From positions 1,665,660 to 1,729,659 of the forward strand of contig CAVTPA010000001.1 of assembly GCA_963736545.1 (NCBI GenBank): DNA of 64,000 nt, in the 5' to 3' direction. A program made the translations under genes and the position numbers. The notes below the pieces were generated by a model. It was given only the letters and a program-made list of their open reading frames with translations, was not told the DNA's origin and did not search any database. Within the stretch, counting starts at the first letter, position 1, and every line of letters begins with the position of its first letter. Below are positions 18,805 through 64,000 of the stretch, piece after piece. The stretch is from an uncultured Chloroflexia bacterium. GTDB taxonomy: Bacteria > Chloroflexota > Limnocylindria > Limnocylindrales > CSP1-4.

Positions 18805-19263
18805 TCACCCCGCCGGGGCGGGTGCCATGGCTGGCGTCAGCACGCCCAAGGGCAGGAGCAGCTCGAGCTGGTCGAAGTACTCATGCACCTCCGTGGCGAG
18901 ATCATCGTCGCCGTATCTGTACGTGATGACGTACGGGAACGCGACCCGGGCGTTCGTCGGCGGGACGACGCCGCCGTCGGCGGTCGCCAGCGGCCCGGTG
19001 TGCGTGCCCGCGAACGTGAACTCGACACAGCCCCGGTCGCCGGCATGGAAGCTCCCGACGATCGTGACTCCGGCGTCGGGGAACGCGGCCAGGAGGCCGG
19101 CGACCCAGGCAACGCGAGCCGCGCGGCCGATGGCCGGGTCCGTCGAACCCGGCGAGTAGACGACGACGTCCGGGCTGAACATCCGGCCGTACGCCTCGAG
19201 GTCGCGGGCGTTCATCCCGTCGATCGCCTCGACGAGGAGCCGCTGCCGCCGCTCGATGCTCAT
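18805..19263 (-). CDS. SnoaL-like / NTF2-fold protein (ester-cyclase-like)
   Basis: 152 aa: MSIERRQRLLVEAIDGMNARDLEAYGRMFSPDVVVY.... Typical size and pattern. The rest of the track ORF (to 19845) is shadow. Confidence 0.65.
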   Translation of the reverse strand: MSIERRQRLLVEAIDGMNARDLEAYGRMFSPDVVVYSPGSTDPAIGRAARVAWVAGLLAAFPDAGVTIVGSFHAGDRGCVEFTFAGTHTGPLATADGGVVPPTNARVAFPYVITYRYGDDDLATEVHEYFDQLELLLPLGVLTPAMAPAPAG

Positions 19264-19811: not shown

Positions 19812-20021
19812 CTCGACCTCCTCCGGCGCAACGGCGCCGGTGCAACAGGTCGCGGGTCGGTCTCGCCAGTGGCTCGACGCGGTCCCGGCGGCCGGGTTCG
19901 GGCCGCGCATCATCGCCTCCCGTATGGCGCGAACCCTAGGCGCGCCCGAGCCGTGTGGCGAGAGTCGAACGGCCCCCAGCGCCGCCACCGGGGCCGAGGC
20001 CCATGGACGAGTCGTCCCGCC

Positions 20022-40534: not shown

Positions 40535-41616
40535 CCGTCGGCCGTCGACAGGGCCGGAGCAGGCGGGTCGTCGGCGTGCGCCTGGCGGGCCGCGCGCGCA
40601 TCCTCGGCTGCCTCGCGCCGTCGCGTTGACGCCTCCTCGGCCCGCATCCAGGCGGCGATCACGATGAAGATGGCCACGATGAACACCAGGTCGCCGATGC
40701 CCCACATGAGGGCGCCCGCGAGCTGCTGGTCCTCGAGCGGCGTCGGCGGCCAGGCGCGTCCGGTGGTCACGTAGTGCGGGTAGAGCACCGTGCCGGAGAA
40801 GAGGATGAGGACGCCGAGCAGCGACATGAGCGGCATCTGGAGGAACAGGTAGCCGATCCGCGCCGGATACGGCAGCCGCCAGGGGCTCGGGTCGCGCCCG
40901 ACGACCGGCCACCAGAAGAGCATCGAGGACGCGAGGTACAGCCCGTGCTCGAGATCGTGGACGAGGGCGTCCTCGAGCGCGGCGTCGAAGAGCGACGACA
41001 GGTGGCTGCCCCAGGTCACCGCCGTGAACAGGAGCCAGGCCACCAGCGGGTGGGCGACGACCTTCACGACCCGCGAGCGCAGCACCGGGAGGATCCAGCG
41101 GTTGCGGACGTCGGGCGTCGCGACACGCAGGAGCAGGGTGATCGGGGCGGCGAGGACGAGCGCCGGACCCGCCCCGAACACGATGAGGGTGTGCTGGACC
41201 ATGTGGACCGAGAACAGCTCCGTATCGTAGCGCTCGATCCCGGAGAGCAGGGCGACCGCGAGGCAGGCGAGACCGATGAGCCAGAAGACCGGGCGGTCGC
41301 GTGGCACGGGATTGGCGGGGTGGGCGGCGTCGACCCGGTGGACGGCCCACAGGTACGCCACCGCGGCGACGACGAGCCCGAGGACGACCTGGGGGTGGAA
41401 CGACCAGCCCAGGACGAAGATCGCGAGGTCGGGCGGTGGCGGCACCTCGCCGCCGTGGGCGAGGGCCGGGCCGGCCGCGGCGAGGGCGACGACCCCGAGC
41501 GCGGGCACCAGCGCGAGGACGCGGGTCGCGCGCGCGAAGCCGCTCGCCGCGGAGCGGCGCGGGGCGCGGCCGGGGGCCTGGCGCGGGGCGCGGCCGGGGG
41601 CTCGCAGGCGGATCAC
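40504..41616 (-). CDS. ctaG: cytochrome c oxidase assembly factor CtaG (caa3-type membrane family)
   Basis: Polytopic membrane protein with SVHMVQH and WWP motifs. Start is GTG 41616 or ATG 41700. Its 3' end overlaps the convergent dehydratase gene by 31 nt. Confidence 0.75.
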   Translation of the reverse strand: MIRLRAPGRAPRQAPGRAPRRSAASGFARATRVLALVPALGVVALAAAGPALAHGGEVPPPPDLAIFVLGWSFHPQVVLGLVVAAVAYLWAVHRVDAAHPANPVPRDRPVFWLIGLACLAVALLSGIERYDTELFSVHMVQHTLIVFGAGPALVLAAPITLLLRVATPDVRNRWILPVLRSRVVKVVAHPLVAWLLFTAVTWGSHLSSLFDAALEDALVHDLEHGLYLASSMLFWWPVVGRDPSPWRLPYPARIGYLFLQMPLMSLLGVLILFSGTVLYPHYVTTGRAWPPTPLEDQQLAGALMWGIGDLVFIVAIFIVIAAWMRAEEASTRRREAAEDARAARQAHADDPPAPALSTADGQAEGMGASR

Positions 41617-41829
41617 GGCGCCATTCTCGCGCGTCCGCCCCGAAGCGGCGCGCGTGCTCGGGCGCGCCTGCTGTTGCGCTCCCAGCAACGCCTGCGACAT
41701 ATGCGCACTCTTGCACGAGGTTCGGGTATCATGCGCGGGCTCTCGTCCGCAGCGTCCCGGCGGAGAGCGGCCAGGAGACGGCCGCCCGCGCGGGCGGAGC
41801 ACGGCAGCATGCACTGTCGAGGGAGGCAG

Positions 41830-43017
41830 ATGACGTTCACCCCGAAGGGTCCCCGCCGCCGCACGGCGATCGTGCTGCTGCTGGCGGCCGTGGCACTCGT
41901 CGTGTCCGCGTGCTCGGACTTCGACATCCGCACGGGGCTCCCGCCGGACGCCGCGACGACGCAGGGCCAGGCGGTCCGCGACCTGTACGACATCGTCTTC
42001 CTCATCGGGGCCGCGGTCTTCATCTTCGTCGAGGGCCTGATCCTCTTCGCCGTCATCCGCTACCGCCGGCGCAAGGGCGACGACGAGCTGCCGCCGCAGA
42101 TCCACGGCAACAACAAGCTCGAGATCATCTGGACGGCGATCCCGATCGCGATCGTCCTCGCCCTCTTCGTCATCTCCTGGAACACTCTCAACGTCATCGA
42201 CGCGGTGAAGCCGAACCCGCCGGTCCGCATCGGGGTCGTCGCCTACCAGTGGCAGTGGCAGTTCGTGTACGCACCCGAGGGGATCGCGTGGGAGGACTGC
42301 GGCGCCCCCGAGAACGCCGGCACGTGCGTCACCGTCATCGGCGTCGGCCCGCCGAACGGCGACCGGACGAACTGGACGCCGCCGCAGATGCACGTGCCCG
42401 TCAACGAGACCGTCGAGCTCCAGATGCACGCGGTGGACGTGATCCACTCGTTCTACGTCCCGGCGTTCCTGTACCAGCGCGACATCACCCCGCGGAAGGA
42501 CCAGGTGATCCAGTTCTTCGCCGACCGCGAGGGGACGTACCGCGGCCAGTGCACCCAGTTCTGCGGCCTCAAGCACCACGAGATGGAGTTCGAGGTCGTC
42601 GTCGAGAGCCGCGAGGACTTCAACGCCTGGCTCGCCGAGGAGCTCACGCCGCCGGCCACGCCGTCGCCCGCGCCGACCACGAGCGCGGCGCCCGGGGGAG
42701 CGCGGCGCCGGGAGAGCGCGGCGCCCGGGGAGGCGGTGACGCTCGAGATCAGCGCCCAGGGCATCGCCTTCGACACCGACACGCTCGAGGTGCCGGCGAA
42801 CACGCCGTTCACGATCGTCTTCGCCAACAACGACGCGGGGATCCCCCACAACGTCGCCATCCACGAGGGGGGCCCGACCGGGCCCGAGGTCTGGGCCGGC
42901 GAGATCTTCAACGGCGTGGAGACCCGGACGTACGAGGTCCCGGCCCTGCCCGCCGGCACGTACGGCTTCATCTGCACGGTCCACCCGAACATGACCGGCA
43001 CGCTCACGGCCCGGTAG
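41830..43017 (+). CDS. ctaC: cytochrome c oxidase subunit II fused to a C-terminal amicyanin/plastocyanin-like cupredoxin domain
   Basis: Lipobox VVSAC, two TM helices, CuA site H...CTQFCGLKHHEM. A linker leads to a 95-aa domain with PHNVAIH and CTVHPNM (C-x2-H-x2-M). GGGAGG Shine-Dalgarno. Confidence 0.9.
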   Translation: MTFTPKGPRRRTAIVLLLAAVALVVSACSDFDIRTGLPPDAATTQGQAVRDLYDIVFLIGAAVFIFVEGLILFAVIRYRRRKGDDELPPQIHGNNKLEIIWTAIPIAIVLALFVISWNTLNVIDAVKPNPPVRIGVVAYQWQWQFVYAPEGIAWEDCGAPENAGTCVTVIGVGPPNGDRTNWTPPQMHVPVNETVELQMHAVDVIHSFYVPAFLYQRDITPRKDQVIQFFADREGTYRGQCTQFCGLKHHEMEFEVVVESREDFNAWLAEELTPPATPSPAPTTSAAPGGARRRESAAPGEAVTLEISAQGIAFDTDTLEVPANTPFTIVFANNDAGIPHNVAIHEGGPTGPEVWAGEIFNGVETRTYEVPALPAGTYGFICTVHPNMTGTLTAR

Positions 43018-43020
43018 GAG
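42714..43020 (+). repeat. copy 1 of a 307-bp segment 100 % identical to 46411-46717 (cupredoxin module plus stop plus 3 nt)
   Basis: Compared base by base by eye; no mismatch seen. Confidence 0.9.
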
Positions 43021-43026
43021 AGGACG

Positions 43027-44664
43027 ATGGCTACCACCGCGCTCCGGCCCACCGCGACGTACCGCTCGGGCATCTACGACTGGCTGACGACCACCGATCA
43101 CAAGAAGATCGGGATCCTCTACACGTTCAACTCGCTGCTGCTCTTCCTCGTCGGCGGCACGCTCGCCCTCGCCGTCCGCACCGAGCTGGCCATGCCGGGC
43201 CTCCAGGTGATGGACGAGACGACGTACAACCAGATGTTCACGATGCACGCCTCGGTGATGATCTTCTGGGTCGTCATCCCGTTCCTGGCGGGCTTCGGCA
43301 ACTACCTGGTCCCGCTCATGATCGGGGCGCCGGACATGGCGTTCCCCCGGATCAACGCCCTCTCGTTCTGGCTCCTGCCGCTCTCCGCGATGATCGCGAT
43401 GCTGGGCTTCCCGCTCGGCGGCGCGGCGCAGGAGGGCTGGACCTCCTACAGCCCGCTCGCGCAGGACCAGTACGCCGCGGGCGTGGGCACCGACCTCTGG
43501 ATCATCGCCCTGCTCCTCGTGGGAACGAGCTCGATCCTCGGGGCGGTCAACTTCCTCGTCACGATCTTCAAGATGCGGGCGCCCGGGATGACCCTCTTCC
43601 GGATGCCGATCTTCGTCTGGACGATCCTCGTGACGAGCGTCCTCGTCCTCATGGGAACGCCGGTCCTGACCTCCGCCCTCGTGATGCTGTACATCGACCG
43701 CAACTTCGGCGGCGCCTTCTTCAACACGGCGCTCGAGGGCGGCAACGCGATCCTGTGGCAGAACGTGTTCTGGTTCTACAGCCACCCGGCCGTCTACATC
43801 ATGATCCTGCCGGCGATGGGGATCATCTCGGAGGTCCTCCCGACCTTCAGCCGGAAGCCGCTCTTCGGCTACAAGGCGTTCGTCTTCGCCACGGCCGCGA
43901 TCGGGGCCCTCGGCTTCTCGGTGTGGGCCCACCACATGTTCACGACCGGCGCCGTGTACCTCCCGTTCTTCAGCTTCATGACGTTCCTCATCGCCGTCCC
44001 GACCGGCGTGAAGATGTTCAACTGGATCGCCACGATGTTCCGGGGGAAGCTGTCGTTCACGACCTCGATGCTGTTCGCGGTCGGGTTCCTGGCGATGTTC
44101 CTCATCGGCGGCATCAACGGTGCCTTCCTGGCGTCCGTCCCGGTGGACTACCACGTTCACGCGACGTACTGGATCGTGGCCCACATCCACTACGTCCTCT
44201 TCGGCGGCTCGATCATCGGCATCTTCGCCGGGCTCTACTACTGGTGGCCGAAGATGTTCGGGCGCCGGCTCAACGAGAGCCTCGGCAAGATCCACTTCGT
44301 CCTCATCTTCATCGGCATGAACCTGACGTTCTTCCCGATGCACCTCCTGGGGACGTCAGGGATGACCCGCCGGATCGCCGACTACAGCGCGACCGCCGGC
44401 TGGAACGACCTGAACCTGTGGGCGACGATCGGCGGCTTCACGATCGCGGTGGGGATGCTGCCGTTCCTGTGGAACATCTTCATCACCCTCCGCCACGGCG
44501 AGCCGGCCGGCGACGACCCGTGGGAGGGCAGCACGCTGGAGTGGGCGACCTCCTCGCCGCCGCCCGCCTGGAACTTCGACCACCTGCCGCCGATCCGCTC
44601 CGAGCGGCCGGTCTTCGACCGCCGCCGGGCGTCCGAGGCAGCCCAGCTTCCCGCGGGGCACTGA
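43027..44664 (+). CDS. ctaD: cytochrome c oxidase subunit I
   Basis: Canonical heme-copper oxidase subunit I sequence (WFYSHPAVYIMILP, HHMF, etc.). Confidence 0.95.
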   Translation: MATTALRPTATYRSGIYDWLTTTDHKKIGILYTFNSLLLFLVGGTLALAVRTELAMPGLQVMDETTYNQMFTMHASVMIFWVVIPFLAGFGNYLVPLMIGAPDMAFPRINALSFWLLPLSAMIAMLGFPLGGAAQEGWTSYSPLAQDQYAAGVGTDLWIIALLLVGTSSILGAVNFLVTIFKMRAPGMTLFRMPIFVWTILVTSVLVLMGTPVLTSALVMLYIDRNFGGAFFNTALEGGNAILWQNVFWFYSHPAVYIMILPAMGIISEVLPTFSRKPLFGYKAFVFATAAIGALGFSVWAHHMFTTGAVYLPFFSFMTFLIAVPTGVKMFNWIATMFRGKLSFTTSMLFAVGFLAMFLIGGINGAFLASVPVDYHVHATYWIVAHIHYVLFGGSIIGIFAGLYYWWPKMFGRRLNESLGKIHFVLIFIGMNLTFFPMHLLGTSGMTRRIADYSATAGWNDLNLWATIGGFTIAVGMLPFLWNIFITLRHGEPAGDDPWEGSTLEWATSSPPPAWNFDHLPPIRSERPVFDRRRASEAAQLPAGH

Positions 44665-44667
44665 CCG

Positions 44668-45300
44668 ATGACCGCCAGCCCGTCCACCGTCACGCCGCAC
44701 GCCGGGGCTCCCGGGGCGCACGTCCAGCACCGGAGCGGGATCAGCAACCCGATCCTGGGGATGATCCTCTTCATCGCCTCGGAGGTGATGTTCTTCGCCG
44801 GCCTCTTCGCGGCCTACTACAACGTCCGGCTGACCGCGCCGCACTGGCCGCCCCTCGTCAACGAGGCCGAGTACGAACCCTTCCTCATCGGCAACGAGAT
44901 CCTCCTGCCGGGGATCCTCACGTTCATTCTCGTCATGAGCTCGGTGACGATGCAGCTGGCCGTGTGGGCGATCCGCCGCGGCGATCGGACGGCGTTCCTG
45001 CGGAACACGGCCGTCACCCTCGTCCTGGGGGTGATCTTCCTCGCCGGGCAGCTCTACGACTACCTGCACCTCGGCTTCGGGATCACCGACACCGCGTTCG
45101 GCAGCACGTTCTACACGCTGACCGGCTTCCACGGCGCCCACGTCCTCGGCGGCGCGGTCATGCTGGGGGTGATCCTCTACCGGGGGCTGGCCGGCCAGTT
45201 CTCGGCCCGTCACCACGACGCGGTGGAGGCGACGTCGCTCTACTGGCACTTCGTCGACGTCGTCTGGATCGTCCTCTTCTCCACGCTCTATCTGCTGTAG
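44668..45300 (+). CDS. ctaE: cytochrome c oxidase subunit III
   Basis: 210 aa, 5 TM, with FHGAHV and YWHFVD motifs. Confidence 0.9.
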   Translation: MTASPSTVTPHAGAPGAHVQHRSGISNPILGMILFIASEVMFFAGLFAAYYNVRLTAPHWPPLVNEAEYEPFLIGNEILLPGILTFILVMSSVTMQLAVWAIRRGDRTAFLRNTAVTLVLGVIFLAGQLYDYLHLGFGITDTAFGSTFYTLTGFHGAHVLGGAVMLGVILYRGLAGQFSARHHDAVEATSLYWHFVDVVWIVLFSTLYLL

Positions 45301-45315
45301 CGTTCGGAGGGACCG

Positions 45316-45495
45316 ATGATCATCAAGCCGCGCTACACGCTCCTGGCGGCCGTCCTGTTCATCACCGTCGCCATCGTCTACGGCGTCCTCAGCCGCGACT
45401 GGGCGGGGGTGACGATGCTGTTCGCGCTCGGGATCGCGACGTCCCTCATGGCCTACGTCCTCGTCGTGGGATCGCCCCGCGGCGACGAGCAGTAG
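45316..45495 (+). CDS. 59-aa two-TM protein resembling the N-terminal half of actinobacterial oxidase subunit IV (CtaF-like); absent from the ORF track
   Basis: GGAGGG Shine-Dalgarno 4 nt upstream of ATG 45316. Reads MIIKPRYTLLAAVLFITVAIVYGVLSRDWAGVTMLFALGIATSLMAYVLVVGSPRGDEQ*. Similarity to CtaF is from memory. Confidence 0.55.
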   Translation: MIIKPRYTLLAAVLFITVAIVYGVLSRDWAGVTMLFALGIATSLMAYVLVVGSPRGDEQ

Positions 45496-45517
45496 CCCCG
45501 GCGGCGACGGGCCACCG

Positions 45518-46714
45518 ATGACGCCCTGGGAGACGTTCCTCGAGGCCGTCGGCTCCCTCGTTGCCCCCGACTGGGGCGCACTCATCCTGCTCATCCCGCT
45601 CGGCGTCCTGCTCGCGGTCGCGGCCTATCTCGTCTGGGTCGTGCGGCGATTTGCGACGGCCGGGCCCCAGGTCACCCGCCCGCTCCCGGTCGCCCCGCCG
45701 CCCGCGGGCGTCCACCTGCCGGGACCGAGCCTGGCCCCGTTCCTCGTCGCCGGCGGCGCCCTCGCCCTCTTCGCCTCGCTCCTCTTCGTCCGGATCGGGC
45801 CGGCGGCGGACCCGACCACGGGTGAGCCGATCCCCGGCAGCACGACGATCGCGATCGAGGCGCTCGGGATCGTCGCCATCGTCCTGGGGGTCGGGGCACT
45901 CGTGGGGGCGCTCCTCTACTGGGGCCGCGAGGCGATGCGCGACTACGACGCGCTCGAGGCGCCCACCGCGCTCGTGGCGGCGGGGCACGCCGGGCCGCCG
46001 GCCGGCGTCCACGTCCCCGGGCCGTCGTTCCGCCCGCTGCTCGCCGCGATCGCGTCCGGGGCCATGCTCCTCGGCCTCGTCATCGACCCGATCGTCTTCC
46101 TTGCCGGCCTGCTCATGACCGTGATCGGGCTCCTCGGCTGGCTCAACGACGCCCGCAAGGAGTACCGCGAGGTCGTCAAGGCGGACGCCACGGGACACCT
46201 TGAGAACATCCCGGCGCCGCGCTTCCCGACCGGGACGCTCGTGGCGTTCGCCGTCATCTTCGTGGGCTCACTGCTCATCGCCGGCGGCATCTTCCCGCCC
46301 CGCGAGGGCACGACCGGCGGGGGCGGCGGCGCACCTCCGCCCGCCACCCAGGCCCCCGGCGGCGGAGGCGGCGCCACCGCGGCACCGGCGCCGAGCGACG
46401 CGCCGACCACGAGCGCGGCGCCCGGGGAGGCGGTGACGCTCGAGATCAGCGCCCAGGGCATCGCCTTCGACACCGACACGCTCGAGGTGCCGGCGAACAC
46501 GCCGTTCACGATCGTCTTCGCCAACAACGACGCGGGGATCCCCCACAACGTCGCCATCCACGAGGGGGGCCCGACCGGGCCCGAGGTCTGGGCCGGCGAG
46601 ATCTTCAACGGCGTGGAGACCCGGACGTACGAGGTCCCGGCCCTGCCCGCCGGCACGTACGGCTTCATCTGCACGGTCCACCCGAACATGACCGGCACGC
46701 TCACGGCCCGGTAG
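45518..46714 (+). CDS. membrane protein with two CtaF-C-like [GVH(L/V)PGPS..P + TM] repeats and the same C-terminal cupredoxin module as CoxII
   Basis: PPAGVHLPGPSLAPF... and PPAGVHVPGPSFRPL... each precede a TM helix. A Gly/Pro linker leads to a 95-aa domain identical to the CoxII C-terminus. Confidence 0.7.
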   Translation: MTPWETFLEAVGSLVAPDWGALILLIPLGVLLAVAAYLVWVVRRFATAGPQVTRPLPVAPPPAGVHLPGPSLAPFLVAGGALALFASLLFVRIGPAADPTTGEPIPGSTTIAIEALGIVAIVLGVGALVGALLYWGREAMRDYDALEAPTALVAAGHAGPPAGVHVPGPSFRPLLAAIASGAMLLGLVIDPIVFLAGLLMTVIGLLGWLNDARKEYREVVKADATGHLENIPAPRFPTGTLVAFAVIFVGSLLIAGGIFPPREGTTGGGGGAPPPATQAPGGGGGATAAPAPSDAPTTSAAPGEAVTLEISAQGIAFDTDTLEVPANTPFTIVFANNDAGIPHNVAIHEGGPTGPEVWAGEIFNGVETRTYEVPALPAGTYGFICTVHPNMTGTLTAR

Positions 46715-56380: not shown

Positions 56381-56808
56381 CCGCCGGGCGTCCCGGCCGA
56401 GCTGCCGCCCCTGCGCACTCGGGGCGCAGCCGCGGCGCACTCGGCGCGCAGCCGCGGCGCACTCGGCGCGATCCTGTCAGAAGCGTGCCAGGCGAACCGT
56501 ACGGACGATCGCTGCGCGGCGATCCGGTACGGGTTCGATCGGATGCTCCGCCGGCGAAGCCGGTGAGAGGATGCGTGGCCCCGTGGAGCCCGGCATGGGG
56601 GTTCGGCGGCGCCTGGAGCGGCGTTCGCGTGCGGCCACCCGCCGTACGGCTCGCTGGGCAAGCTTCTGAGATGGTCGGGGCGCCACCCGAGACTCGGGAT
56701 CGCCGCTGCCACGAGCAGGTGCTCAGGACGCGTCGCACGCGTTCCGGAGCGGTTCAGGATCGGCAAGGACGATCCGTCGCCCGAAACCGAACGACATGCA
56801 GCCAACGA

Positions 56809-57585
56809 ATGGGGGGCATGAACAACCGACGCCTCGCCGCAATCGTCGTCGCCGTCGTCGCCGTCCTGGCGATCGGCGGCCTCGTCCTCGCCCAGGGGTT
56901 CCTGCGCGGGGACGACGTCCCCGAGCTCGGGCTCGACACGCCCGGGCCGACCGCGGTCGCGACGCCGACCCCGTCCGAGGTCCCGGCCGCGACGCCCGCG
57001 CCGACGGACGGCGGCGTCGCGACGCCGGAGACGCCGGTCGCCGGCGGCCTCGTCGGCACCTGGGCGGTCACCGAGGGCGAGGCGGGCTATCGGGTCCGCG
57101 AGACGTTCCTCCAGCAGCAGGCCGACACGGACGCCGTGGGTCGAACGGGCGACGTCACCGGCGGCCTCGTTGTCGAGGGCACGGACGGCGCGCTGACGCT
57201 CACCGAGGGCTCGATCGAGGTCGACATGACGACCCTGCAGAGCAACGAGGGTCGCCGCGACAACCAGCTTCGCGGCCGCGGCATCCAGACCGACACGTTC
57301 CCGACCTCGACGTTCGTCCTCGCCGGCCCGGTGGCACTCGCGCCGGAGTTCGGCAGCGCCGATGTCGACGTGACGCTGCCGGGCCAGCTCACGCTCCACG
57401 GCGTGACCCGGGACGTCGAGATCGCGGCCCAGGCCCGTGTCCAGGACGACGGCAGCGTCGTCGTCGCCGGCTCGCTCCCGATCCTGTTCGCCGACTACGA
57501 CATCGAGGCGCCGAACGTCGCCGGCCTCATCGCCGTCCAGGACAACGGCACGATGGAGTTCCGGGTCGTCCTCGCGAAGGGGTAG
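56809..57585 (+). CDS. YceI-like domain protein with an N-terminal membrane anchor
   Basis: TM helix LAAIVVAVVAVLAIGGLVL, PT-rich linker, and a YceI-like beta-barrel (..SIEVDMTTLQSNEGRRDNQLRG..LTLHGVTRDV..). Confidence 0.8.
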   Translation: MGGMNNRRLAAIVVAVVAVLAIGGLVLAQGFLRGDDVPELGLDTPGPTAVATPTPSEVPAATPAPTDGGVATPETPVAGGLVGTWAVTEGEAGYRVRETFLQQQADTDAVGRTGDVTGGLVVEGTDGALTLTEGSIEVDMTTLQSNEGRRDNQLRGRGIQTDTFPTSTFVLAGPVALAPEFGSADVDVTLPGQLTLHGVTRDVEIAAQARVQDDGSVVVAGSLPILFADYDIEAPNVAGLIAVQDNGTMEFRVVLAKG

Positions 57586-57785
57586 TCGATCGGCGGCCGA
57601 CCCTCGCACGCCGCTCCGGCGGCCGACCCTCGCACACCGCTCCGGCGGCCGACTGCCGGCGCGAGCACCCACCACGGCCCCATCCTCGTCCCGGCTGAAA
57701 CGACGCGAGCCTCTCGTGCGTCTCACCGGCGGTTGAACGAGATGCGCGCACGCCGCCGTCCCCGTGCTCGCGCAGGGAGGCCCCC

Positions 57786-60422
57786 ATGCAACGCCTCGAC
57801 CCGCCGCGAACGCTCGCCGCCCTCGCCCTCTCGATGACGCTGGCGGCATGCGGCACGGCCGCGACGCCCGCCGTGCCGACGACGCCCCCACCCCCGGCGT
57901 CACCGCCTGCGACGCCGGCCGCGCCGGAGACGCCGGCGGCCGACGGCGCGACCTGGGCTCCGGCCGGCGCCCTGGCGCTCGGCCGGGCAAGCACACACGT
58001 CGCGCTCCTCGGGGACGGCCGCGTTCTCGTCGTCGGCAATGACAACCTGTGCGAGCCGGGCGGCGCGTGGGAGAGCAGCGTCCTCGCCGAGCTCTACGAT
58101 CCGGCGACCGGGACGTGGGCCCCGGCCGGCAGCCTCAATGCGCCGCGCACCGACTTCGCCGCCGTGGCCCTGCCCGACGGCCGGGTGCTCGTGGCCGGGG
58201 GGATGACGTCGGCGGACCCGGTGGAGGGCGCGTTCGGCTCGTACTCGAGCGCGAAGCTCTACGACCCGGCGACGGGCACCTGGTCGGCGACGGGCCTGAT
58301 GGGCACGGCCCGCACCGAGCCCGTCGCGGCGCTCCTCCCCGACGGCACCGTCCTCGTCGCGGGCGGGGCGTACGTCGACGCGGCCGGAAACCGCGACCTG
58401 GCGAGCGCGGAGATCTACGACCCCGAGAGCGGCACGTGGTCGCCGACGGGCGACATGAGCACGGCGCGCCGGGGAGCCGAGTCGGTCACCCTCGCCGACG
58501 GGCGCGTCCTGGTCGTCGGGGCCGCCCACGGCAGCATCGCGTCGGCCGAGATCTACGACCCGGCGGCGGGCGCCTGGTCGCCGGCCGGCTCGCTCGCGCA
58601 GGCTCGGGATGACTTCGCCCTGACCGCGCTTCCCGACGGTGGCGCGCTCGTCGCGGGTGGCGCGGTCGAGGGCAGCGACATCCCGCAGGCGACGGCCACC
58701 GCCGAGCGCCTCGATCCGGTGACGCTGCGCTGGTCGCCCACCGCCGACATGAGCACGGCGGCCGCGAACCGGTCGGCGGTCCTCCTCGGCGATGGCCGCG
58801 TCCTCGTTGCCGGCGGCGTCACGATCACCGACGCCCGGGCGACGGGAGGCAGCACCGAGCGCCCGCCGCTTGCCGACGCGGAGCTGTACGACCCGGCGAC
58901 GGGCAGGTGGACCCCGGCGCCGTCGCTGCCGACGGCCCGCGAGGGCGGCACCTTCGTGACGCTGGCGGACCGGACGGTGCTCCTCGTCGGCGGCGACGGG
59001 GGCTACGTCGGGGAACCGATGATGCCCTGGTGCCCCGAGCCGGTCGCCGCGGCGGTCCGGTACGTGCCGGGCAACCTCGCCGACTTCCCGGAGGTGGCCC
59101 CGCCGGCCACGGTCGCGGTCGCCCGGTCGGACGTCCCCCGGGCCGAGGCGAAGCCGGCCCAGGCGAAGCGCGTCGCCGCGTCGATCACCGCGTTCGGCGT
59201 CGACCTCTACAAGCGCATGCTCGAGGACGGCACGATCGACGCGAAGGCGAATGCCGTCTTCTCGCCGACGAGCATCGCCCTCGCCCTCGGGATGGCGCGA
59301 GCCGGCGCGAACGGCGAGACCGCCGCCCAGATGGACGCCGTCCTGCACGTGGCCGGCTGGGAGGCCCTCGGCGTCGGGCTCAACGCCCTGGACCAGGCGC
59401 TGGCGTCGCGCGACGCGACGTGGAAGGACGGCGAGGGAACCACTCACGAGCTCGCCCTTCGGATCGCGAACGCCGCGTTCGCCCAGGAGGGCTGGCCGAT
59501 CCTGCAGCCCTACCTCGACCGGATCGCCGCGACATTCGGCTCGGGCCTGCGCCTCGTCGACTACGTCGGCGACACGGACGGTGCCCGAAGGACGATCAAC
59601 GCCTGGGTCAGCCGGAAGACCGAGAAGCGCATCCCCGAGCTCCTGACACCCCCCGATGTCACCGTCTACAGTCGCCTCTTCCTCGTCAACGCGATCTACC
59701 TCAAGGCGGGCTGGGCGAACCCGTTCCCGGCGGCGGCGACCCGGGCTCGGGCGTTCACCCGGCTGAACGGGTCGACCGTGAAGGTGCCGACGATGGTCCA
59801 GCAGGACACGATCCCGCTGGCGAGCGGCGCCGGCTGGACGGCGACCGAGCTCCGCTACGAGGCCGGCGACGCGAACTGGCGCACGCCCCTCGCGATGACC
59901 CTCATCCTCCCCGACGACCTCCGCTCGTTCGAGAGGGAGCTCGCCGCGGGTCGCCTGGCGACCGTCGTGCGAAAGCTCGACACCGCCCGCGATCACCTGG
60001 ACGACGAGGTCGCCTGCGTTCAGTACCCCGAGATGGCGTGCTGCGATCACCCGTACGACGTCCGCCTCTTCCTCCCCCGCTTCGCGGCGGAGACGAAGGC
60101 GGACCTGCTCCCGGAGCTGGCGTCCCTCGGCATGACGCTCGCCACCGACCCGCTCCAAGCGGACTTCTCCGGCATCACCTCGCCGAGCGAGCTCTACATC
60201 GCGAAGGTCATTCACCAGGCCAACATCGACGTCGACGAGAAGGGGACGGAGGCGGCCGCGGCGACCGCCGTCGGCATGTCCACGACCGGGGGCTGCGGGC
60301 CGAGCAACCCGCACCGGGTGATCACGGTCCGCTTCGACCGGCCGTTCTTCTTCGTCCTCCGCGACGTCCAGACGGGCGCGATCCTGTTCATGGGTCGCGT
60401 CGTCGATCCGTCGGCGACGTAG
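57786..60422 (+). CDS. lipoprotein fusing a 7-bladed Kelch-type beta-propeller to a full serpin domain
   Basis: Lipobox LTLAAC-G. Seven D/G-R-V-L-V-x-G-G blades with YDPxxGxW. Serpin motifs FSPTSIALALGMARAGANGETAAQM, hinge EKGTEAAAATAV, and C-terminal FDRPFFFVLRD..TGAILFMGRVVDP. Confidence 0.8.
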   Translation: MQRLDPPRTLAALALSMTLAACGTAATPAVPTTPPPPASPPATPAAPETPAADGATWAPAGALALGRASTHVALLGDGRVLVVGNDNLCEPGGAWESSVLAELYDPATGTWAPAGSLNAPRTDFAAVALPDGRVLVAGGMTSADPVEGAFGSYSSAKLYDPATGTWSATGLMGTARTEPVAALLPDGTVLVAGGAYVDAAGNRDLASAEIYDPESGTWSPTGDMSTARRGAESVTLADGRVLVVGAAHGSIASAEIYDPAAGAWSPAGSLAQARDDFALTALPDGGALVAGGAVEGSDIPQATATAERLDPVTLRWSPTADMSTAAANRSAVLLGDGRVLVAGGVTITDARATGGSTERPPLADAELYDPATGRWTPAPSLPTAREGGTFVTLADRTVLLVGGDGGYVGEPMMPWCPEPVAAAVRYVPGNLADFPEVAPPATVAVARSDVPRAEAKPAQAKRVAASITAFGVDLYKRMLEDGTIDAKANAVFSPTSIALALGMARAGANGETAAQMDAVLHVAGWEALGVGLNALDQALASRDATWKDGEGTTHELALRIANAAFAQEGWPILQPYLDRIAATFGSGLRLVDYVGDTDGARRTINAWVSRKTEKRIPELLTPPDVTVYSRLFLVNAIYLKAGWANPFPAAATRARAFTRLNGSTVKVPTMVQQDTIPLASGAGWTATELRYEAGDANWRTPLAMTLILPDDLRSFERELAAGRLATVVRKLDTARDHLDDEVACVQYPEMACCDHPYDVRLFLPRFAAETKADLLPELASLGMTLATDPLQADFSGITSPSELYIAKVIHQANIDVDEKGTEAAAATAVGMSTTGGCGPSNPHRVITVRFDRPFFFVLRDVQTGAILFMGRVVDPSAT

Positions 60423-60505
60423 CAGCGCACGCCACCGGGCGCCACGCCCACCGGGCCCGCCGGCGTCAGGGGCCCGCCGGCGCCCCGCCCACATGGCCGC
60501 CGGCG

Positions 60506-62008
60506 TCAGGCCCCCGGCCGGCGGGCCACCACCGAGAAGAGCCGCTCCCCGTCCCGGAGCGGCTCTCGCGTGAACTCGCGGTAGAAGGCGAGGTCGACGA
60601 AGCCGGCCGTCTCGAGGGCCGCGCGGGCGTCGTCGGGCGCGTACCCGCGGACCGCCGGCGAGCGGACCTGGTGCTGCGTCGCGACGACGGTACCGTCGCG
60701 CCGGAGCTCGTACGTCTCCTCGGTGTGCTCGAGGCGCGTCCCGGCCTCGACCCACGACCGGCTGATCCGGCGGATCCGCGACCCGTCGGGCAGGTCGGCC
60801 TCCTCGGTCCACGACTCGTCGGCAGCCTCGGCGAGCGAGTAGAACGGCAGGGCGAGCGTGCCGCCGGGGACGAGGTGGTCGTGGAAGCGGCGAAGGGCCT
60901 CGGCGGCCGCCTCCGGCTCGATCACGAGCTGGAACGAGGACGAGGGCACGATGATCGTCCGGTAGCGGCGCGGCAGGTCCATCGCCTCCATCGCCTGCTC
61001 GAAGAGGCGGCCCTCGACGTCGAGGCCGGCCGCCGCCGCCTTCGAGCGGCAGATCGCGAGCATCTCCCCGGAGATCTCCACGCCGTCGACGTCGATGCCG
61101 AGCCCGCGGTAGTCGAGGAGGAGCCGGCCGGTCCCGCAGCCGACGTCGAGGACGGGCTCGCCGCGCTCGCGGACGAGGTCGAAGTAGAAGGAGCGGTCCT
61201 CCCAGCCCGACGTGTCGCCGCGCAGCGGGTCCCAGGCGAGGGCCATGAGGCCGACGTACTCGAGGCCGGCGGCGTCGCCGGTCATGCGCTCGTGCCCCCC
61301 AGGTGCCCGGGCGCTGCCCGAGCCCCTCGCGGGCCGCGGCCGGAGCGCCGTCGCGGCGCCCCACGCGGCGAGAGCCATGCCGGCGGCGAAGATCGGCCAC
61401 GGGAAGTCGGTCGGGACGCCTCCCTCCGTCAGCAGGGGCGCGTTCCAGCAGAAGGCGGCGACGACGATCACGCCGCCGCCGATCCCAGCCGCCAGCTGGG
61501 CGGGCCCCGCCCGCACCGGCCGCCCCGCCCGCAGGCGCGCCGCAGCCGCGAGGCCGAACCCGATGAGCGCCACGCTCACCGCGACGGGCGACCAGACCGG
61601 CCCCGCCCACGGCACCGGGATGAGGAAGAGGAGGTCCCACGTCGCGAGCGAGGGCGGCCAGCCGACGAACACCCACAGCCAGGCGTAGTAGAGGATGTCC
61701 CAGGTCCCGAAGGCGACCGCCGTCCAGGCCAGCCGCTCGAGCGGGCTCCGCCCGGCGAGCCACCCGACGGCCGCCAGCATCGCGAGCGTCGCCGCCTCGC
61801 GACCGACCTCGATCGCGGCGAGGTCCCCCACGCCGGCCGGGTCCCGGAGGGGGAAGAGCACGCCGGTCTCCATCCCGAGGGCGCGCTGCAGGTAGACGAC
61901 GACGGCCGACTCGAGGTACGCCATCGCCACGGCGAACGCGATGACGACGACGGCCGTCGCGACGAGCCCGGCGCCGCGCCGGGGCATCTCAGGTGCCGGG
62001 GACCTCAC
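60506..62008 (-). CDS. polytopic membrane domain (Trp-rich, about 6 TM) in frame with a class I SAM-dependent methyltransferase
   Basis: One uninterrupted 500-aa ORF. Methyltransferase motif I VLDVGCGTGRL. An internal ATG at 61285 could give a separate 259-aa methyltransferase. Confidence 0.6.
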   Translation of the reverse strand: MRSPAPEMPRRGAGLVATAVVVIAFAVAMAYLESAVVVYLQRALGMETGVLFPLRDPAGVGDLAAIEVGREAATLAMLAAVGWLAGRSPLERLAWTAVAFGTWDILYYAWLWVFVGWPPSLATWDLLFLIPVPWAGPVWSPVAVSVALIGFGLAAAARLRAGRPVRAGPAQLAAGIGGGVIVVAAFCWNAPLLTEGGVPTDFPWPIFAAGMALAAWGAATALRPRPARGSGSARAPGGHERMTGDAAGLEYVGLMALAWDPLRGDTSGWEDRSFYFDLVRERGEPVLDVGCGTGRLLLDYRGLGIDVDGVEISGEMLAICRSKAAAAGLDVEGRLFEQAMEAMDLPRRYRTIIVPSSSFQLVIEPEAAAEALRRFHDHLVPGGTLALPFYSLAEAADESWTEEADLPDGSRIRRISRSWVEAGTRLEHTEETYELRRDGTVVATQHQVRSPAVRGYAPDDARAALETAGFVDLAFYREFTREPLRDGERLFSVVARRPGA

Positions 62009-62070
62009 TCCGTCAGTATGCCGCCGGCGGTCGACGAGAAGCGTCGGCGTCCGGGCCGCGAGGATGCGTC

Positions 62071-62541
62071 CTAGCCGGTCGGGGCGACCTCGCTCGGGGC
62101 TGGGCCGATCTCCTGCTCGACCTCCCGGTCGAGGCGGCGGAAGGTGAGGGGGGTCGTGCTGCCGCCCGCGGCGAGGAGCGCCTTCGCCAGGTCCTCGGTC
62201 GTCGACTCCAGGAGCTGCATGAACTGCGTCTCCGCGAACTCCCGCTTCGGATCCGTGGCGTCCGTCCCGAACACCGCGTCGAGCAGCTGGACGAGCATCT
62301 GGTCCATCGCGTAGAGGCGGAGGTGGACGAGCTCGTGGACGACGACCTCCTCGAGATGAGCCGGCTCCTGGCTCGCCCGGAGGAGGAGCACCGCCTTGCG
62401 GTCGTCGAGGTCGACCTTGACGTCTCCTGTCTTCCGCCAGGGCGTGTCGACGAGCCGGAGCTCGATGTCCCAGTCGGCGAGGCGGAGGGTCGGCTGCCAG
62501 CGCGCGAGGACCGCGCGCGCCTCGTCAGCGGTGATCGCCAT
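62071..62541 (-). CDS. hypothetical 156-aa protein with an HExxH motif
   Basis: VVVHELVHL. The start overlaps the end of the upstream BMC-P gene by 17 nt. Confidence 0.5.
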   Translation of the reverse strand: MAITADEARAVLARWQPTLRLADWDIELRLVDTPWRKTGDVKVDLDDRKAVLLLRASQEPAHLEEVVVHELVHLRLYAMDQMLVQLLDAVFGTDATDPKREFAETQFMQLLESTTEDLAKALLAAGGSTTPLTFRRLDREVEQEIGPAPSEVAPTG

Positions 62542-62806
62542 CGTCAGTCACCTCGTCGACGATGCCGACGACGACCGTGCGGATCGGGGCGCCGGGGGCC
62601 GCGAGGACCTGCCGCGCCCCGTTTCCCTCGTCGAGGAGGAGGACCATCTCCCCCGCCCCGGCGCCGACCGAGTCCACGGCGATCATGTAGCCGCCGGCGG
62701 GGTTGCCGCTCGCGTCGAGCAAGTCGCACAGGAGGAGCGTCCGCTCGTCGAAGGCGGGGTGGTCGATCGTCGAGACGACGGTCCCGACGACCCGGGCGAG
62801 CTTCAC
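62525..62806 (-). CDS. bacterial microcompartment vertex protein (BMC-P, EutN/CcmL family)
   Basis: MKLARVVGTVVSTIDHP...AVDSVGAGAGEMVLL..G.GAR...VVGIVD pattern. ATGA overlap with the upstream gene. Confidence 0.85.
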   Translation of the reverse strand: MKLARVVGTVVSTIDHPAFDERTLLLCDLLDASGNPAGGYMIAVDSVGAGAGEMVLLLDEGNGARQVLAAPGAPIRTVVVGIVDEVTDDGDHR

Positions 62807-63162
62807 GGCTTCGCCCTACGGCTGCGACGCCTGGGTGCCGGCGGCGCGGACGAGGCGGTCGCGGCCGGCGGTGCCACCACGGGATCGTCACCCGCCAGTG
62901 ACCGAACGGCGTCCACGATTCCGACGATCGCATGGTCGACCGGGACGAACGGATCGGGCATCGCCTGGGCGGCCTCGCGCGCGGCGACGAAGTAGACGAG
63001 CTCCCCGGGCCCGGCCATGTGGACGGCGTCGGCGGCGACGACCTGGCTGCCGATCGGGCGCAGCCGGCGGTCCAGCGGCTGGACGATGAGCAGCTTGATC
63101 CCGGTCAGGCCGGGCACCTTGACCGTGGCGACGACCGTGCCGGTGACGCGTCCGAGCTGCAT
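62803..63162 (-). CDS. bacterial microcompartment vertex protein (BMC-P) with a basic Pro/Ala-rich C-terminal tail
   Basis: MQLGRVTGTVVATVKVPGLTGIKLLIVQPLD...AADAVHMAGPGELV...AIVGIVD, followed by a 30-aa tail ..APPAPRRRSRRAKP. Confidence 0.85.
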   Translation of the reverse strand: MQLGRVTGTVVATVKVPGLTGIKLLIVQPLDRRLRPIGSQVVAADAVHMAGPGELVYFVAAREAAQAMPDPFVPVDHAIVGIVDAVRSLAGDDPVVAPPAATASSAPPAPRRRSRRAKP

Positions 63163-63164
63163 CG

Positions 63165-63863
63165 CTACCTCGTCGGCTTCACTGGGCGCGGCCGCGGGAC
63201 GATCGCGGCCGGCCCGCCGGGCTCGCGAACACGCACCGAGAACCGGGCGTCGGCGGCCAGGTTCTCCGCCATCTCGCCGTGGAGCTGGGGGATGACCCGC
63301 GAGACGAGGCCGGGCGTGCCGGCGATCCGCCCGGTCCCGGCCTCGACGGCCGCCTGCACCTCGGCGACGGGGCCGTCGAACAGGAGGTAGCCCTTGCCGC
63401 CGAGGTCGTCGGCGAGGCGCAGCTCGAGGAGCCGGACCCGGGCGCCCTTCACGCCTGCGTCGGCGGCCTCGATCGTCGCCGCGACCGTCGCGGTCTCGAT
63501 GATCCCGAGCGCCTCGCCGGCCGGCTCCGCCCGGGCGCCCCGCAGGGCCGCCACGACGTCGGTGTGGACGTTCGGCAGGAAGACGACCCCACGGACGGCC
63601 GCCGCTCCCACGTCTCGCCCCGCGTTGAGCGCCTCTTCGACGTCGGCGACGGCACCGCCGACGAGGACGAGGTACTTGCCGGGGTGGACCGTCCCGGCGC
63701 GGATGACGTCGATCGGGGCCTTCTTTGCCATCGCGTCGCCGGCCTCGATGCCCGCCGCGATCGAGTCGAGCTCCAGCAGCCCGAGGGCCGGCTCCAGCCC
63801 ACCGGCACCCGCCCGCGCCGCGGCGGGGATGGAGCGGTGGGCGGGAGGCCGGCCGGTCGGCAT
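63165..63863 (-). CDS. tandem-BMC-domain shell protein (BMC-T, PduT-like architecture)
   Basis: Two BMC-domain signatures (ALGLLELDSIAAGIEAGDAMAKKA.. and ALGIIETATVAATIEAADAGVKGA..). ATGA overlap with the upstream aldehyde dehydrogenase. Confidence 0.8.
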   Translation of the reverse strand: MPTGRPPAHRSIPAAARAGAGGLEPALGLLELDSIAAGIEAGDAMAKKAPIDVIRAGTVHPGKYLVLVGGAVADVEEALNAGRDVGAAAVRGVVFLPNVHTDVVAALRGARAEPAGEALGIIETATVAATIEAADAGVKGARVRLLELRLADDLGGKGYLLFDGPVAEVQAAVEAGTGRIAGTPGLVSRVIPQLHGEMAENLAADARFSVRVREPGGPAAIVPRPRPVKPTR

Positions 63864-64000
63864 CAGACGATCCGGAGGGCGCCGACGACCGTCACGCGCC
63901 GCTCGCGCGAGAACGTGCGCGGGCGGGTGAGGCCGTCGCCGGTCGGGCTGGCGATCGAGAACGAGGTGAAGCCCTCGCCGCCCTCGCCGAGCCCGGCGAC
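63863..64000 (-). CDS. acylating aldehyde dehydrogenase (EutE/PduP-like), C-terminal 45 aa only (gene continues beyond the window)
   Basis: Reads ..[43 protein letters not shown], matching my recollection of the GGEG.T.F.IA.PTGEG.T..R.F.R.RR..L...FRI tail of BMC aldehyde dehydrogenases. Confidence 0.6.

What the first reader, a model, noticed from the sequence alone, without database searches (positions are those of the whole stretch)
57786..60422. Kelch beta-propeller::serpin fusion lipoprotein
One 878-aa ORF carries a lipobox and seven Kelch-like blades (DGRVLVAGG / YDPATGTW repeated seven times). It then carries a complete serpin with hinge EKGTEAAAATAV and the C-terminal FDRPFFFVLRD..LFMGRVVDP. 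The prokaryotic serpins I know are stand-alone proteins of about 400 aa, so a propeller fused N-terminally would be a new architecture, perhaps a targeting or exosite module. The reactive-centre loop is long and contains Cys (GMSTTGGCGPSNPH). A nearby insertion adds three more Cys (ACVQYPEMACCDH), which hints at redox control of the loop.
Basis: partly seen in the sequence, partly recalled or inferred. Interest (0 to 1): 0.68.

Follow-up and report, generated by a model that had tools for sequence, protein, structure and literature searches.

The report
Kelch propeller fused to membrane-anchored serpin
A soil-type Chloroflexota bacterium encodes a lipid-anchored, exported protease inhibitor (serpin) carrying a seven-bladed Kelch propeller in front; the fusion is real and conserved, and the propeller is one of several interchangeable front modules, so it is unlikely to be part of the inhibitory machinery.

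Summary
ORF 57786-60422 (+) encodes 878 aa: signal peptide with lipobox (Cys22), a Pro/Thr/Ala linker, a seven-bladed Kelch propeller and a full-length serpin with an intact inhibitory hinge.

It is not a frameshift artefact. The two homologue listings contain 33 complete relatives (50-79% identical per domain) with the same architecture. All come from metagenomes or MAGs and are labelled only "serpin B" or "serpin family protein".

- **Not the only front module.** The same serpin clade (56-71% identical) also occurs with an SH3-like domain (72 complete proteins) or only a linker (9). The propeller and serpin halves have different nearest relatives, so front modules are shuffled.
- **Bacterial serpins are not always stand-alone.** Miropin is a surface lipoprotein, and cellulosomal serpins are modular.
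- **The cysteines look structural.** The loop Cys837 (P3') is present exactly when the hH-s2C insertion has an odd number of Cys (153 of 156 sequences). This points to a disulfide stapling the loop's prime side. A redox switch remains untested.

The predicted P1 is Thr834 (Gly in most relatives), so the target probably prefers small residues.

Verdict: a new variant of a known kind, of moderate interest.

The parts
57775..57780 (+). Shine-Dalgarno-like GGGAGG, five bases before the ATG at 57786
   Evidence: Read directly from the sequence.
57786..57851 (+). Signal peptide with lipobox (MQRLDPPRTLAALALSMTLAAC). Cys22 is the predicted lipidated first residue of the mature protein.
   Evidence: Cys22 and Gly23 are invariant in 29 of 29 family members. 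An M...lipobox pattern is found in 114 complete clade members.
57852..57944 (+). Pro/Thr/Ala-rich flexible linker (aa 23-53)
   Evidence: Composition is 11 Pro, 10 Ala and 6 Thr in aa 23-55. pLDDT is below 50. Length varies across the family.
57945..59069 (+). Seven-bladed Kelch beta-propeller (aa 54-428), with conserved Cys89 (58050-58052) and Cys416 (59031-59033)
   Evidence: Pfam Kelch_6 E=9.5e-34 and Kelch_1 E=1.1e-26. Seven DG..L..G motifs and six (Y/L)DP....W motifs. Four-strand repeats in the AlphaFold2 model. C89 is invariant and C416 at least 90% conserved.
59070..59150 (+). Inter-domain linker (aa 429-455). Its conserved end, A.SDVPRA, is also the start of the serpin cassette in the SH3-like and linker-only relatives.
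   Evidence: Alignment; sequences; pLDDT below 50 at aa 437-442.
59151..60419 (+). Serpin domain (aa 456-878); stop codon TAG at 60420-60422
   Evidence: PF00079 E=2.2e-85, full length. Closest solved structure by sequence is chloropin 8GXV, E=6e-47. Foldseek top hits are all serpins, target-normalised TM 0.73-0.87.
59994..60059 (+). Cys-bearing insertion between helix H and strand s2C (aa 737-758, HLDDEVACVQYPEMACCDHPYD; Cys744, Cys752, Cys753)
   Evidence: It is an insertion relative to MENT in the PDB alignment. pLDDT is below 50 at 740-758. The number of Cys changes 10 times on the family tree but its parity only twice.
60237..60323 (+). Hinge and reactive-centre loop (aa 818-846, P17 Glu818 onward). 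Predicted scissile bond is Thr834-Gly835 (60285-60290). Cys837 (P3', 60294-60296) is predicted to be disulfide-bonded to the insertion.
   Evidence: The hinge is invariant. Thr834 aligns with the experimentally mapped P1 Arg of chloropin (PMC10090351). Cys co-occurrence holds in 153 of 156 sequences.

Best explanation
**What it is.** The gene encodes an exported serpin-type protease inhibitor that is lipid-anchored through Cys22 to the outer face of the membrane. The host is an uncultured Chloroflexota bacterium related to Limnocylindria.

**The inhibitor.** The C-terminal 420 residues are a canonical inhibitory serpin. A protease cleaves the exposed loop near Thr834-Gly835. The loop then inserts into beta-sheet A and the protease is trapped covalently.

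**The clade-specific elaboration.** The prime side of the loop is extended and carries Cys837. An insertion before strand s2C carries an odd number of cysteines. Together these most likely form a disulfide that staples the loop's C-terminal end to the serpin body. I infer this could stabilise the metastable native state or shape access for the protease.

**The propeller.** The Kelch propeller sits between the lipid anchor and the serpin. It is one of at least three interchangeable front modules (Kelch, SH3-like, bare linker). It is therefore most likely an envelope-positioning, retention or spacer module and is unlikely to be part of the inhibitory mechanism.

**Likely role.** I infer that the protein protects the cell surface from secreted proteases that prefer small P1 residues.

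**Shown:** the architecture, its conservation, the inhibitory sequence signature, the cysteine pairing pattern and the module interchange.

**Inferred:** lipidation, the disulfide itself, the scissile bond, the role of the propeller and the target.
For: **Architecture and conservation**
- 33 complete Kelch-serpin homologues of 855-951 aa exist, and 29 of them align collinearly.
- Three loci share the synteny cdd-PNP-thymidine phosphorylase-[gene]-convergent microcompartment locus.

**Inhibitory signature**
- P17 Glu, P15 Gly, P12-P9 Ala and P8 Thr are invariant in 155 sequences; P14 is Thr in 141.
- S493, S496, N635, W643 and H810 are invariant.
- AlphaFold2 models residues 820-831 as a strand, and the best structural matches are cleaved or latent serpins.

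**Predicted P1**
- Thr834 aligns with the P1 Arg of chloropin, which was mapped by mass spectrometry (PMC10090351).

**Disulfide**
- Counts of (insertion Cys, loop Cys) are (0,0) 24, (1,1) 84, (2,0) 19 and (3,1) 26, with only 3 exceptions in 156.
- The insertion Cys number changes 10 times on the tree but its parity only twice.
- The loop is 3-4 residues longer where it carries the Cys.

**Interchangeable modules**
- Complete proteins: SH3-like 72, Kelch 33, linker-only 9.
- The SH3-like module has weak Pfam SH3_3 hits in 3 of 3 sequences. Its model has pLDDT 90, and all 50 top Foldseek hits are SH3 domains.
- Module types interleave on the serpin tree, with 13 parsimony changes.
- The window's propeller is closest to P0005 (73% propeller, 61% serpin). 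Its serpin is closest to P0002 (79% serpin, 66% propeller). SH3-type serpins at 70-71% are closer than most Kelch-type ones at 54-64%.

**Precedent and host**
- Miropin is a surface lipoprotein serpin that inhibits a neighbouring species' proteases.
- The window's cytochrome oxidase subunit I is 77% identical to proteins named Candidatus Limnocylindrales and Chloroflexota.
Against: - There is no biochemical evidence of inhibition, lipidation or disulfides.
- The tool returns no coordinates, so Cys-Cys distances could not be measured. The insertion (740-758) and loop (833-847) have pLDDT below 50.
- On the tree, parity changes only 2-3 times independently, so part of the 153/156 agreement is shared ancestry.
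- The tree is a simple neighbour-joining tree without support values. The count of module swaps may be inflated.
- No protease gene is conserved next to the gene, so the target is unknown.
- A specific ligand for the propeller, including a protease exosite, is not excluded.
Confidence: 0.6

Rival explanations
1. The propeller is a dedicated exosite. It binds the target protease, or a protease-bearing partner, and delivers it to the reactive-centre loop, so the fusion sets specificity.
For: - Kelch propellers are typical protein-binding platforms (general knowledge).
- The propeller is well conserved within the family, with many invariant positions.
- Among related serpins there is another lipoprotein with a large unrelated N-terminal region, P0421.
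Against: - The same loop bait (P4 Met, P2 Thr, P1 Gly/Thr, P1' Gly) is kept in SH3-like and linker-only relatives.
- The propeller and serpin halves have different nearest relatives.
- The linker between the domains is long and of low confidence, and pTM is 0.51.
Confidence: 0.2
2. The loop and insertion cysteines form a redox switch. Reducing or oxidising the disulfide turns inhibition on or off.
For: The loop Cys and the odd insertion Cys co-occur, so a disulfide involving the loop is likely. In one SH3-type relative the gene lies next to a DsbD/thioredoxin-like cluster (L064).
Against: - After the lipobox Cys, cysteines come in even numbers in nearly all members, as expected for structural disulfides of exported proteins.
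- 24 sequences in the clade alignment have no Cys in either the loop or the insertion, and 19 more have none in the loop, yet they keep the same bait.
- The Cys sits at P3', outside the segment that inserts into sheet A.
Confidence: 0.12
3. The serpin domain is non-inhibitory (a binding or chaperone-like serpin), and the protein's main activity lies in the propeller.
For: - The predicted P1 (Thr/Gly) is unusual for well-studied serpins.
- The loop is 4 residues longer than in chloropin.
- By my hand count it is about 8 residues longer than in alpha-1-antitrypsin.
Against: - The hinge matches the inhibitory consensus perfectly, and the shutter and breach residues are invariant.
- Small P1 residues are the rule among the closest prokaryotic serpin representatives: T 53, G 18, S 18, V 11 and A 8 of 131.
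- No catalytic Kelch family is matched above its cut-off. GlxA scores 58 bits against a cut-off of 800.
Confidence: 0.06
4. The fusion is an assembly or frameshift artefact joining two neighbouring genes.
For: Other long-read assemblies of the same gene do contain frameshifts: P0033, P0121 and P0124.
Against: 33 complete homologues from independent samples share the architecture, and the junction is conserved. Third-position GC of the stop-to-stop frame that contains the gene is 0.94.
Confidence: 0.01

Closest known systems
Miropin (Tannerella forsythia surface lipoprotein serpin)
   Same: It is a bacterial serpin made as a lipoprotein and displayed outside the cytoplasm. It traps secreted proteases covalently, including those of a competing species (bioRxiv 10.1101/2025.09.05.674453).
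   Different: As far as I know, miropin has no added domain. It comes from a diderm Bacteroidota and uses several reactive sites around Lys368. No loop disulfide is mentioned in the passages I read. The present protein has a seven-bladed propeller, a small P1 and a Cys at P3'.
Chloropin (Chlorobium limicola serpin, PDB 8GXV)
   Same: It is the closest solved structure by sequence, E=6e-47. It is a secreted bacterial inhibitory serpin with the identical hinge EKGTEAAAATAV. Its P1 falls at the canonical distance from P17 (PMC10090351).
   Different: It is a stand-alone protein of about 375 residues with P1 Arg. It lacks the hH-s2C insertion and has a loop 4 residues shorter.
Modular cellulosomal serpins of Clostridium thermocellum (PinA and relatives)
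   Same: They are a precedent for bacterial serpins fused to a targeting module that places the inhibitor in an extracellular structure, proposed to protect it from proteases (PMC6718151). A related LRR+serpin+dockerin protein, P0425, appeared in this search.
   Different: Their targeting is by a dockerin to a scaffoldin. No dockerin is detected here. Here the anchor is a lipid and the added module is a Kelch propeller.
SH3-like-serpin and linker-only lipoproteins of the same clade (e.g. P0130, P0219, P0135)
   Same: Their serpin domains are 56-71% identical, with the same hinge, bait, insertion and cysteine pattern, and the same lipobox.
   Different: Their front module is an SH3-like barrel of about 85 residues, or nothing. 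The SH3-type genes examined lie at other genomic loci.

Membership tests
Serpin superfamily (Pfam PF00079) | Full-length match to the serpin profile, and the serpin fold | tested here: met
   PF00079 E=2.2e-85, 287.6 bits against a cut-off of 27, model positions 2-370 of 370. All top 50 Foldseek PDB hits are serpins, target-normalised TM 0.73-0.87.
Inhibitory serpins | Hinge consensus: P17 Glu, P15 Gly, P14 Thr/Ser, and small residues at P12-P9 | tested here: met
   E818-K-G-T-E-A-A-A-A-T827. P17, P15 and P12-P8 are invariant or nearly so in 155 clade members.
Inhibitory serpins | Conserved shutter and breach residues (alpha-1-antitrypsin Ser53, Ser56, Asn186, Trp194, His334) | tested here: met
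   S493 and S496 (FSPTSIALAL), N635 (LVNAIYLK), W643 (KAGW) and H810 (VIHQANIDVDEKG) are invariant in 29 of 29. Equivalence to alpha-1-antitrypsin numbering rests on my recall of its motifs, not on a computed alignment.
Inhibitory serpins | Formation of an SDS-stable covalent complex with a target protease after cleavage at P1-P1' | not testable with these tools
   Only a prediction is possible. Thr834 is 16 residues after P17 and aligns with the mapped P1 Arg of chloropin.
Bacterial lipoproteins (signal peptidase II substrates) | N-terminal signal peptide with a basic n-region, a hydrophobic h-region and a lipobox [LVI][ASTVI][GAS]C | tested here: met
   MQRLDPPRTLAALALSMTLAAC|G. Cys22 is invariant in 29 of 29. 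A lipobox pattern is found in 114 complete clade proteins. This was pattern matching only; no dedicated predictor was available.
Bacterial lipoproteins (signal peptidase II substrates) | Lgt and LspA present in the genome, and actual acylation | not tested
   Only a 64-kb window was available, and it was not searched for lgt or lspA.
Kelch-repeat beta-propellers | Repeated Kelch motifs above the Pfam cut-offs, forming a closed propeller | tested here: met
   Kelch_6 114.7 bits (cut-off 25.3), Kelch_1 92.5 (20.1), Kelch_4 85.1 (21.6). Seven four-strand blades in the model. Ring closure and the Cys89-Cys416 bond could not be checked without coordinates.
Kelch-domain enzymes (galactose oxidase/GlxA, NanM mutarotase) | Match to the family-specific model above its curated cut-off | tested here: not met
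   GlxA NF052501 scores 58 bits against a cut-off of 800. The NanM models score 19-22 bits against 256-416.
Cellulosomal (dockerin-bearing) serpins | Type I dockerin domain | tested here: not met
   No dockerin hit in the Pfam scan at E up to 0.1.

The most novel reading that the evidence does not exclude
Limnocylindria-like Chloroflexota may carry a diversified, mix-and-match set of surface-anchored antiproteases. In this reading, serpin cassettes recombine with different envelope-binding front modules: Kelch propeller, SH3-like barrel, bare linker, and possibly others such as the 440-residue region of P0421. The cassettes are distinguished by a disulfide that staples the prime side of the reactive-centre loop to a dedicated insertion. 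To my knowledge, such a staple is not described for natural serpins. It would block the latency transition or act as a built-in exosite. The propeller would recognise a specific envelope polymer or protease partner.
Probability: 0.3. Interest if true: 0.62.

Novelty: new variant of a known kind. Interest (0 to 1): 0.48.

Why it matters
Bacterial serpins are little studied, and most characterised ones are single-domain proteins. This finding has three consequences.
- It shows that a whole clade in an uncultured soil and freshwater lineage is built as lipoproteins with exchangeable front modules.
- It gives a clear, testable case of a loop-stapling disulfide. That bears on how a metastable inhibitor is kept active outside the cell, and it could inform the engineering of stabilised serpins.
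- It corrects annotation. These proteins are labelled only "serpin B" or "serpin family protein", which hides the propeller and the lipid anchor.

The protein still works like a known kind of inhibitor, so it does not change the general picture of serpin mechanism.

Tried and rejected
- **Genome scan for relatives.** The scan of species-representative genomes was driven by the generic Kelch pattern YDPESGTW. It returned Kelch-only proteins from Verrucomicrobiota, Myxococcota and Chloroflexota. Two loci with matches of fusion-like length (L030, L047) proved to be tandem Kelch genes, not fusions. The window's own genome was not found there.
- **Cluster names.** The cluster look-up gave no organism names. 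Taxonomy had to be inferred from cytochrome oxidase subunit I.
- **Literature.** Searches for Kelch plus serpin, and for bacterial serpin domain architectures, found nothing relevant. The PinA paper itself is not held.
- **Cognate protease.** None was found in the neighbourhood. The only peptidase nearby is an M14 carboxypeptidase, which is not a serpin target class, and the neighbourhood differs in P0045.
- **Propeller-loop contact.** This could not be judged. The model has pTM 0.51 and a low-confidence linker, and the tool returns no coordinates or error map.
- **SH3-like module by sequence.** A profile search against solved structures found nothing. Only fold comparison and weak Pfam hits support the SH3 assignment.
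- **P0421.** Its N-terminal 440 residues have no Pfam match even at E=5. My impression of PD40-like motifs there is unconfirmed.
- **Regex parsing.** My first regex-based parse of the cysteine regions missed 67 sequences. I replaced it with an alignment-based count.
Full report
**1. The observation**

The ORF at 57786-60422 (+) exists as described. It is 878 codons long with one terminal stop. A GGGAGG motif lies five bases upstream of the ATG.

Pfam finds a full-length serpin domain over aa 466-875 (model 2-370 of 370, E=2e-85). It also finds five Kelch families above their curated cut-offs in aa ~100-410.

The propeller has seven blades. This follows from seven DG(R/T)VLV..G motifs and seven four-strand repeats in the AlphaFold2 model. 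The YDPxxGxW motif occurs six times, not seven.

**2. The fusion is real**

A search of 5.8 billion proteins returned about 40 clusters with the same Kelch + serpin architecture. These are 49-70% identical over the whole length. I aligned 29 full-length members. They are collinear through the domain junction, and the junction itself is conserved.

In all, the two listings (the best 120 hits of each search) contain 33 complete proteins of 855-951 aa with this architecture.

Shorter or longer copies of the window's own protein in other assemblies are frameshifted versions (P0033, P0121, P0124). This shows indel errors occur in such assemblies. The window copy agrees with the family over its whole length.

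Three loci share the same gene order:
- cytidine deaminase, purine nucleoside phosphorylase and thymidine phosphorylase upstream;
- then the Kelch-serpin gene;
- then a convergent sugar-phosphate-type microcompartment locus.

A more distant member, P0045, sits elsewhere. No protease gene is conserved nearby.

**3. The host**

The window has about 74% G+C. Its cytochrome oxidase subunit I is 77% identical to proteins named Candidatus Limnocylindrales bacterium and Chloroflexota bacterium; closer hits are unnamed metagenome proteins. Named relatives of the serpin come from Chloroflexota, Coriobacteriia and Nanopelagicales MAGs.

I take the host to be an uncultured Limnocylindria-like Chloroflexota. 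This rests on one marker protein.

**4. The serpin half**

The hinge is E818-K-G-T-E-A-A-A-A-T. P17, P15 and P12-P8 are invariant or nearly so in 155 clade members. Residues that I equate, from memory of alpha-1-antitrypsin motifs, with the shutter and breach are invariant (S493, S496, N635, W643, H810).

AlphaFold2 models residues 820-831 as a strand. The best structural matches are cleaved or latent serpins. This is at least compatible with a loop that can insert into sheet A.

The closest solved structure by sequence is chloropin, 8GXV. Its P1 Arg383 was mapped experimentally and lies 16 residues after P17 (PMC10090351). Thr834 aligns with it.

The loop positions in the clade are as follows:

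| Position | Residue in the clade |
|---|---|
| P4 | Met (102 of 155) |
| P2 | Thr (129 of 155) |
| P1 | Gly 96 or Thr 58 |
| P1' | Gly (153 of 155) |

Small P1 residues also dominate among the nearest prokaryotic serpin representatives. I infer a target that accepts small P1 residues, but the target is unknown. The conserved bait argues for a conserved class of target, not rapid diversification at P1.

**5. The cysteines**

The window protein has seven Cys: 22, 89, 416, 744, 752, 753 and 837. Cys22 is the lipobox residue. Cys89 is invariant and Cys416 is at least 90% conserved. They lie in the first and last blades, so a ring-closing disulfide is likely but untested.

I aligned 156 serpin domains of the clade and counted Cys in the hH-s2C insertion and in the loop:

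| Cys in insertion | Cys in loop | Sequences |
|---|---|---|
| 0 | 0 | 24 |
| 1 | 1 | 84 |
| 2 | 0 | 19 |
| 3 | 1 | 26 |
| other (exceptions) | | 3 |

On a neighbour-joining tree, the insertion Cys number changes 10 times but its parity only twice. So cysteines are gained and lost in pairs, and the loop Cys appears only with an unpaired insertion Cys. The loop is also 3-4 residues longer where it carries the Cys.

The simplest reading is a disulfide between P3' and the insertion. Because parity changes only 2-3 times independently, part of the agreement is inherited. The bond itself remains an inference.

The pattern fits structural disulfides of an exported protein better than a redox switch. 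24 sequences in the clade alignment have no Cys in either region, and 19 more have none in the loop, yet they keep the same bait.

**6. The propeller is one of several front modules**

Searching with the serpin half alone found many proteins whose serpin domains are 56-71% identical but whose N-termini differ. All of them have a lipobox. Among complete proteins the counts are:

| Front module | Complete proteins | Length (aa) |
|---|---|---|
| SH3-like domain of ~85 residues | 72 | 577-629 |
| Kelch propeller | 33 | 855-951 |
| Pro/Thr-rich linker only | 9 | 498-571 |

The 85-residue domain gives weak Pfam SH3_3 hits in 3 of 3 sequences. It folds with pLDDT 90 into a barrel whose 50 best PDB matches are all SH3 domains, although with weak E-values of 0.3-0.8.

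On the serpin tree the module types interleave, with 13 parsimony changes. The two halves of the window protein also have different nearest relatives:
- its propeller is closest to P0005 (73% propeller, 61% serpin);
- its serpin is closest to P0002 (79% serpin, 66% propeller);
- its serpin is closer to SH3-type proteins (70-71%) than to most Kelch-type ones (54-64%).

The SH3-type genes I examined lie at other loci. I conclude that front modules and serpin cassettes have been recombined repeatedly. The tree is simple and unsupported, so the exact number of events is uncertain.

This makes a role of the propeller in the inhibitory step itself unlikely. It favours positioning, retention or spacing in the cell envelope. 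A specific ligand is not excluded.

**7. Comparison with what is known**

- Lipoprotein serpins are known. Miropin is displayed on the cell surface and inhibits a neighbour's proteases.
- Modular bacterial serpins are known from cellulosomes (PMC6718151).
- Membrane-anchored prokaryotic serpins are noted in a superfamily survey (PMC8233489).
- A scan of 1.84 billion cluster representatives (clusters at 50% identity) shows that most close serpin relatives are 400-470 aa. It also shows tandem serpins, LRR+serpin+dockerin, DUF6174+serpin, and a lipoprotein with an unassigned 440-residue N-terminus.

So an N-terminal addition is not new in kind. The Kelch-serpin combination, however, was not found in any paper I could search. 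No Kelch-serpin cluster carries a UniRef tag. Existing labels mention only the serpin.

**8. Verdict**

The protein is a genuine, conserved, previously undescribed architectural variant of a bacterial lipoprotein serpin. The most interesting points are two. The cysteine pattern points to a disulfide-stapled reactive-centre loop. The evidence also shows that front modules are shuffled among serpin cassettes. Both are testable. Interest is moderate.

Noticed in passing
P0127-P0241 (e.g. P0219, P0147, P0130); loci L063 10001-11818 and L064 10001-11833: Most members of the same serpin clade are lipoproteins of about 600 aa with an SH3-like barrel of about 85 residues in place of the Kelch propeller. 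A few have only a Pro/Thr-rich linker. The SH3-type genes lie at unrelated loci.
   Followed up: yes
L064 13360-15229: Next to one SH3-type serpin gene lies a cluster of Glrx-like, DsbD/CcdA-type membrane protein and thioredoxin/redoxin genes. This could relate to disulfide handling of exported proteins. It is a single case.
   Followed up: no
P0421 (815 aa, from the representative library): This is a lipobox protein with an N-terminal region of about 440 residues that has no Pfam match, followed by a serpin with a similar ATGGG loop. It may be a further front-module type. Motifs such as FSPDGRRLAL and WTPNGEQIVY reminded me of PD40 repeats, but this was not confirmed.
   Followed up: partly
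window 57591-57653 and 60438-60523: A 26-bp unit is repeated 2.4 times (97% matches) between the YceI-like gene and the serpin gene. A 41-bp unit is repeated 2.1 times from just after the serpin stop codon into the 3' end of the convergent downstream ORF (60506-62008, minus strand).
   Followed up: no
window 19846-19929 (-): Match to the c-di-GMP-II-GAG riboswitch aptamer family, 70.7 bits against a gathering score of 40.
   Followed up: no
window 60506-64000 (-); L059, L060 and L062 downstream of the serpin gene: A convergent bacterial microcompartment locus lies downstream of the serpin gene (EutN/CcmL, BMC shell proteins, aldehyde dehydrogenase, DeoC, RpiB, SorC-type regulator). It is syntenic in three related genomes.
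   Followed up: partly
window 56485-57585 (+): A YceI-like gene sits between thymidine phosphorylase and the serpin gene in this genome, but it is absent from the syntenic loci L060 and L062.
   Followed up: partly
window 40630-46714 (+): A cytochrome oxidase cluster in which the subunit II-like protein (795 aa) and a following 433-aa protein both carry C-terminal cupredoxin domains.
   Followed up: no
window 15294-18836 (-): A large signalling protein of 1180 aa with adenylate/guanylate cyclase, AAA ATPase and TPR domains.
   Followed up: no
P0033, P0121, P0124 (other assemblies of the same gene): Near-identical copies of the gene in other long-read assemblies carry frameshifts that truncate it or extend it into a spurious 1300-aa product. 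This is a caution for gene calls from such assemblies.
   Followed up: yes
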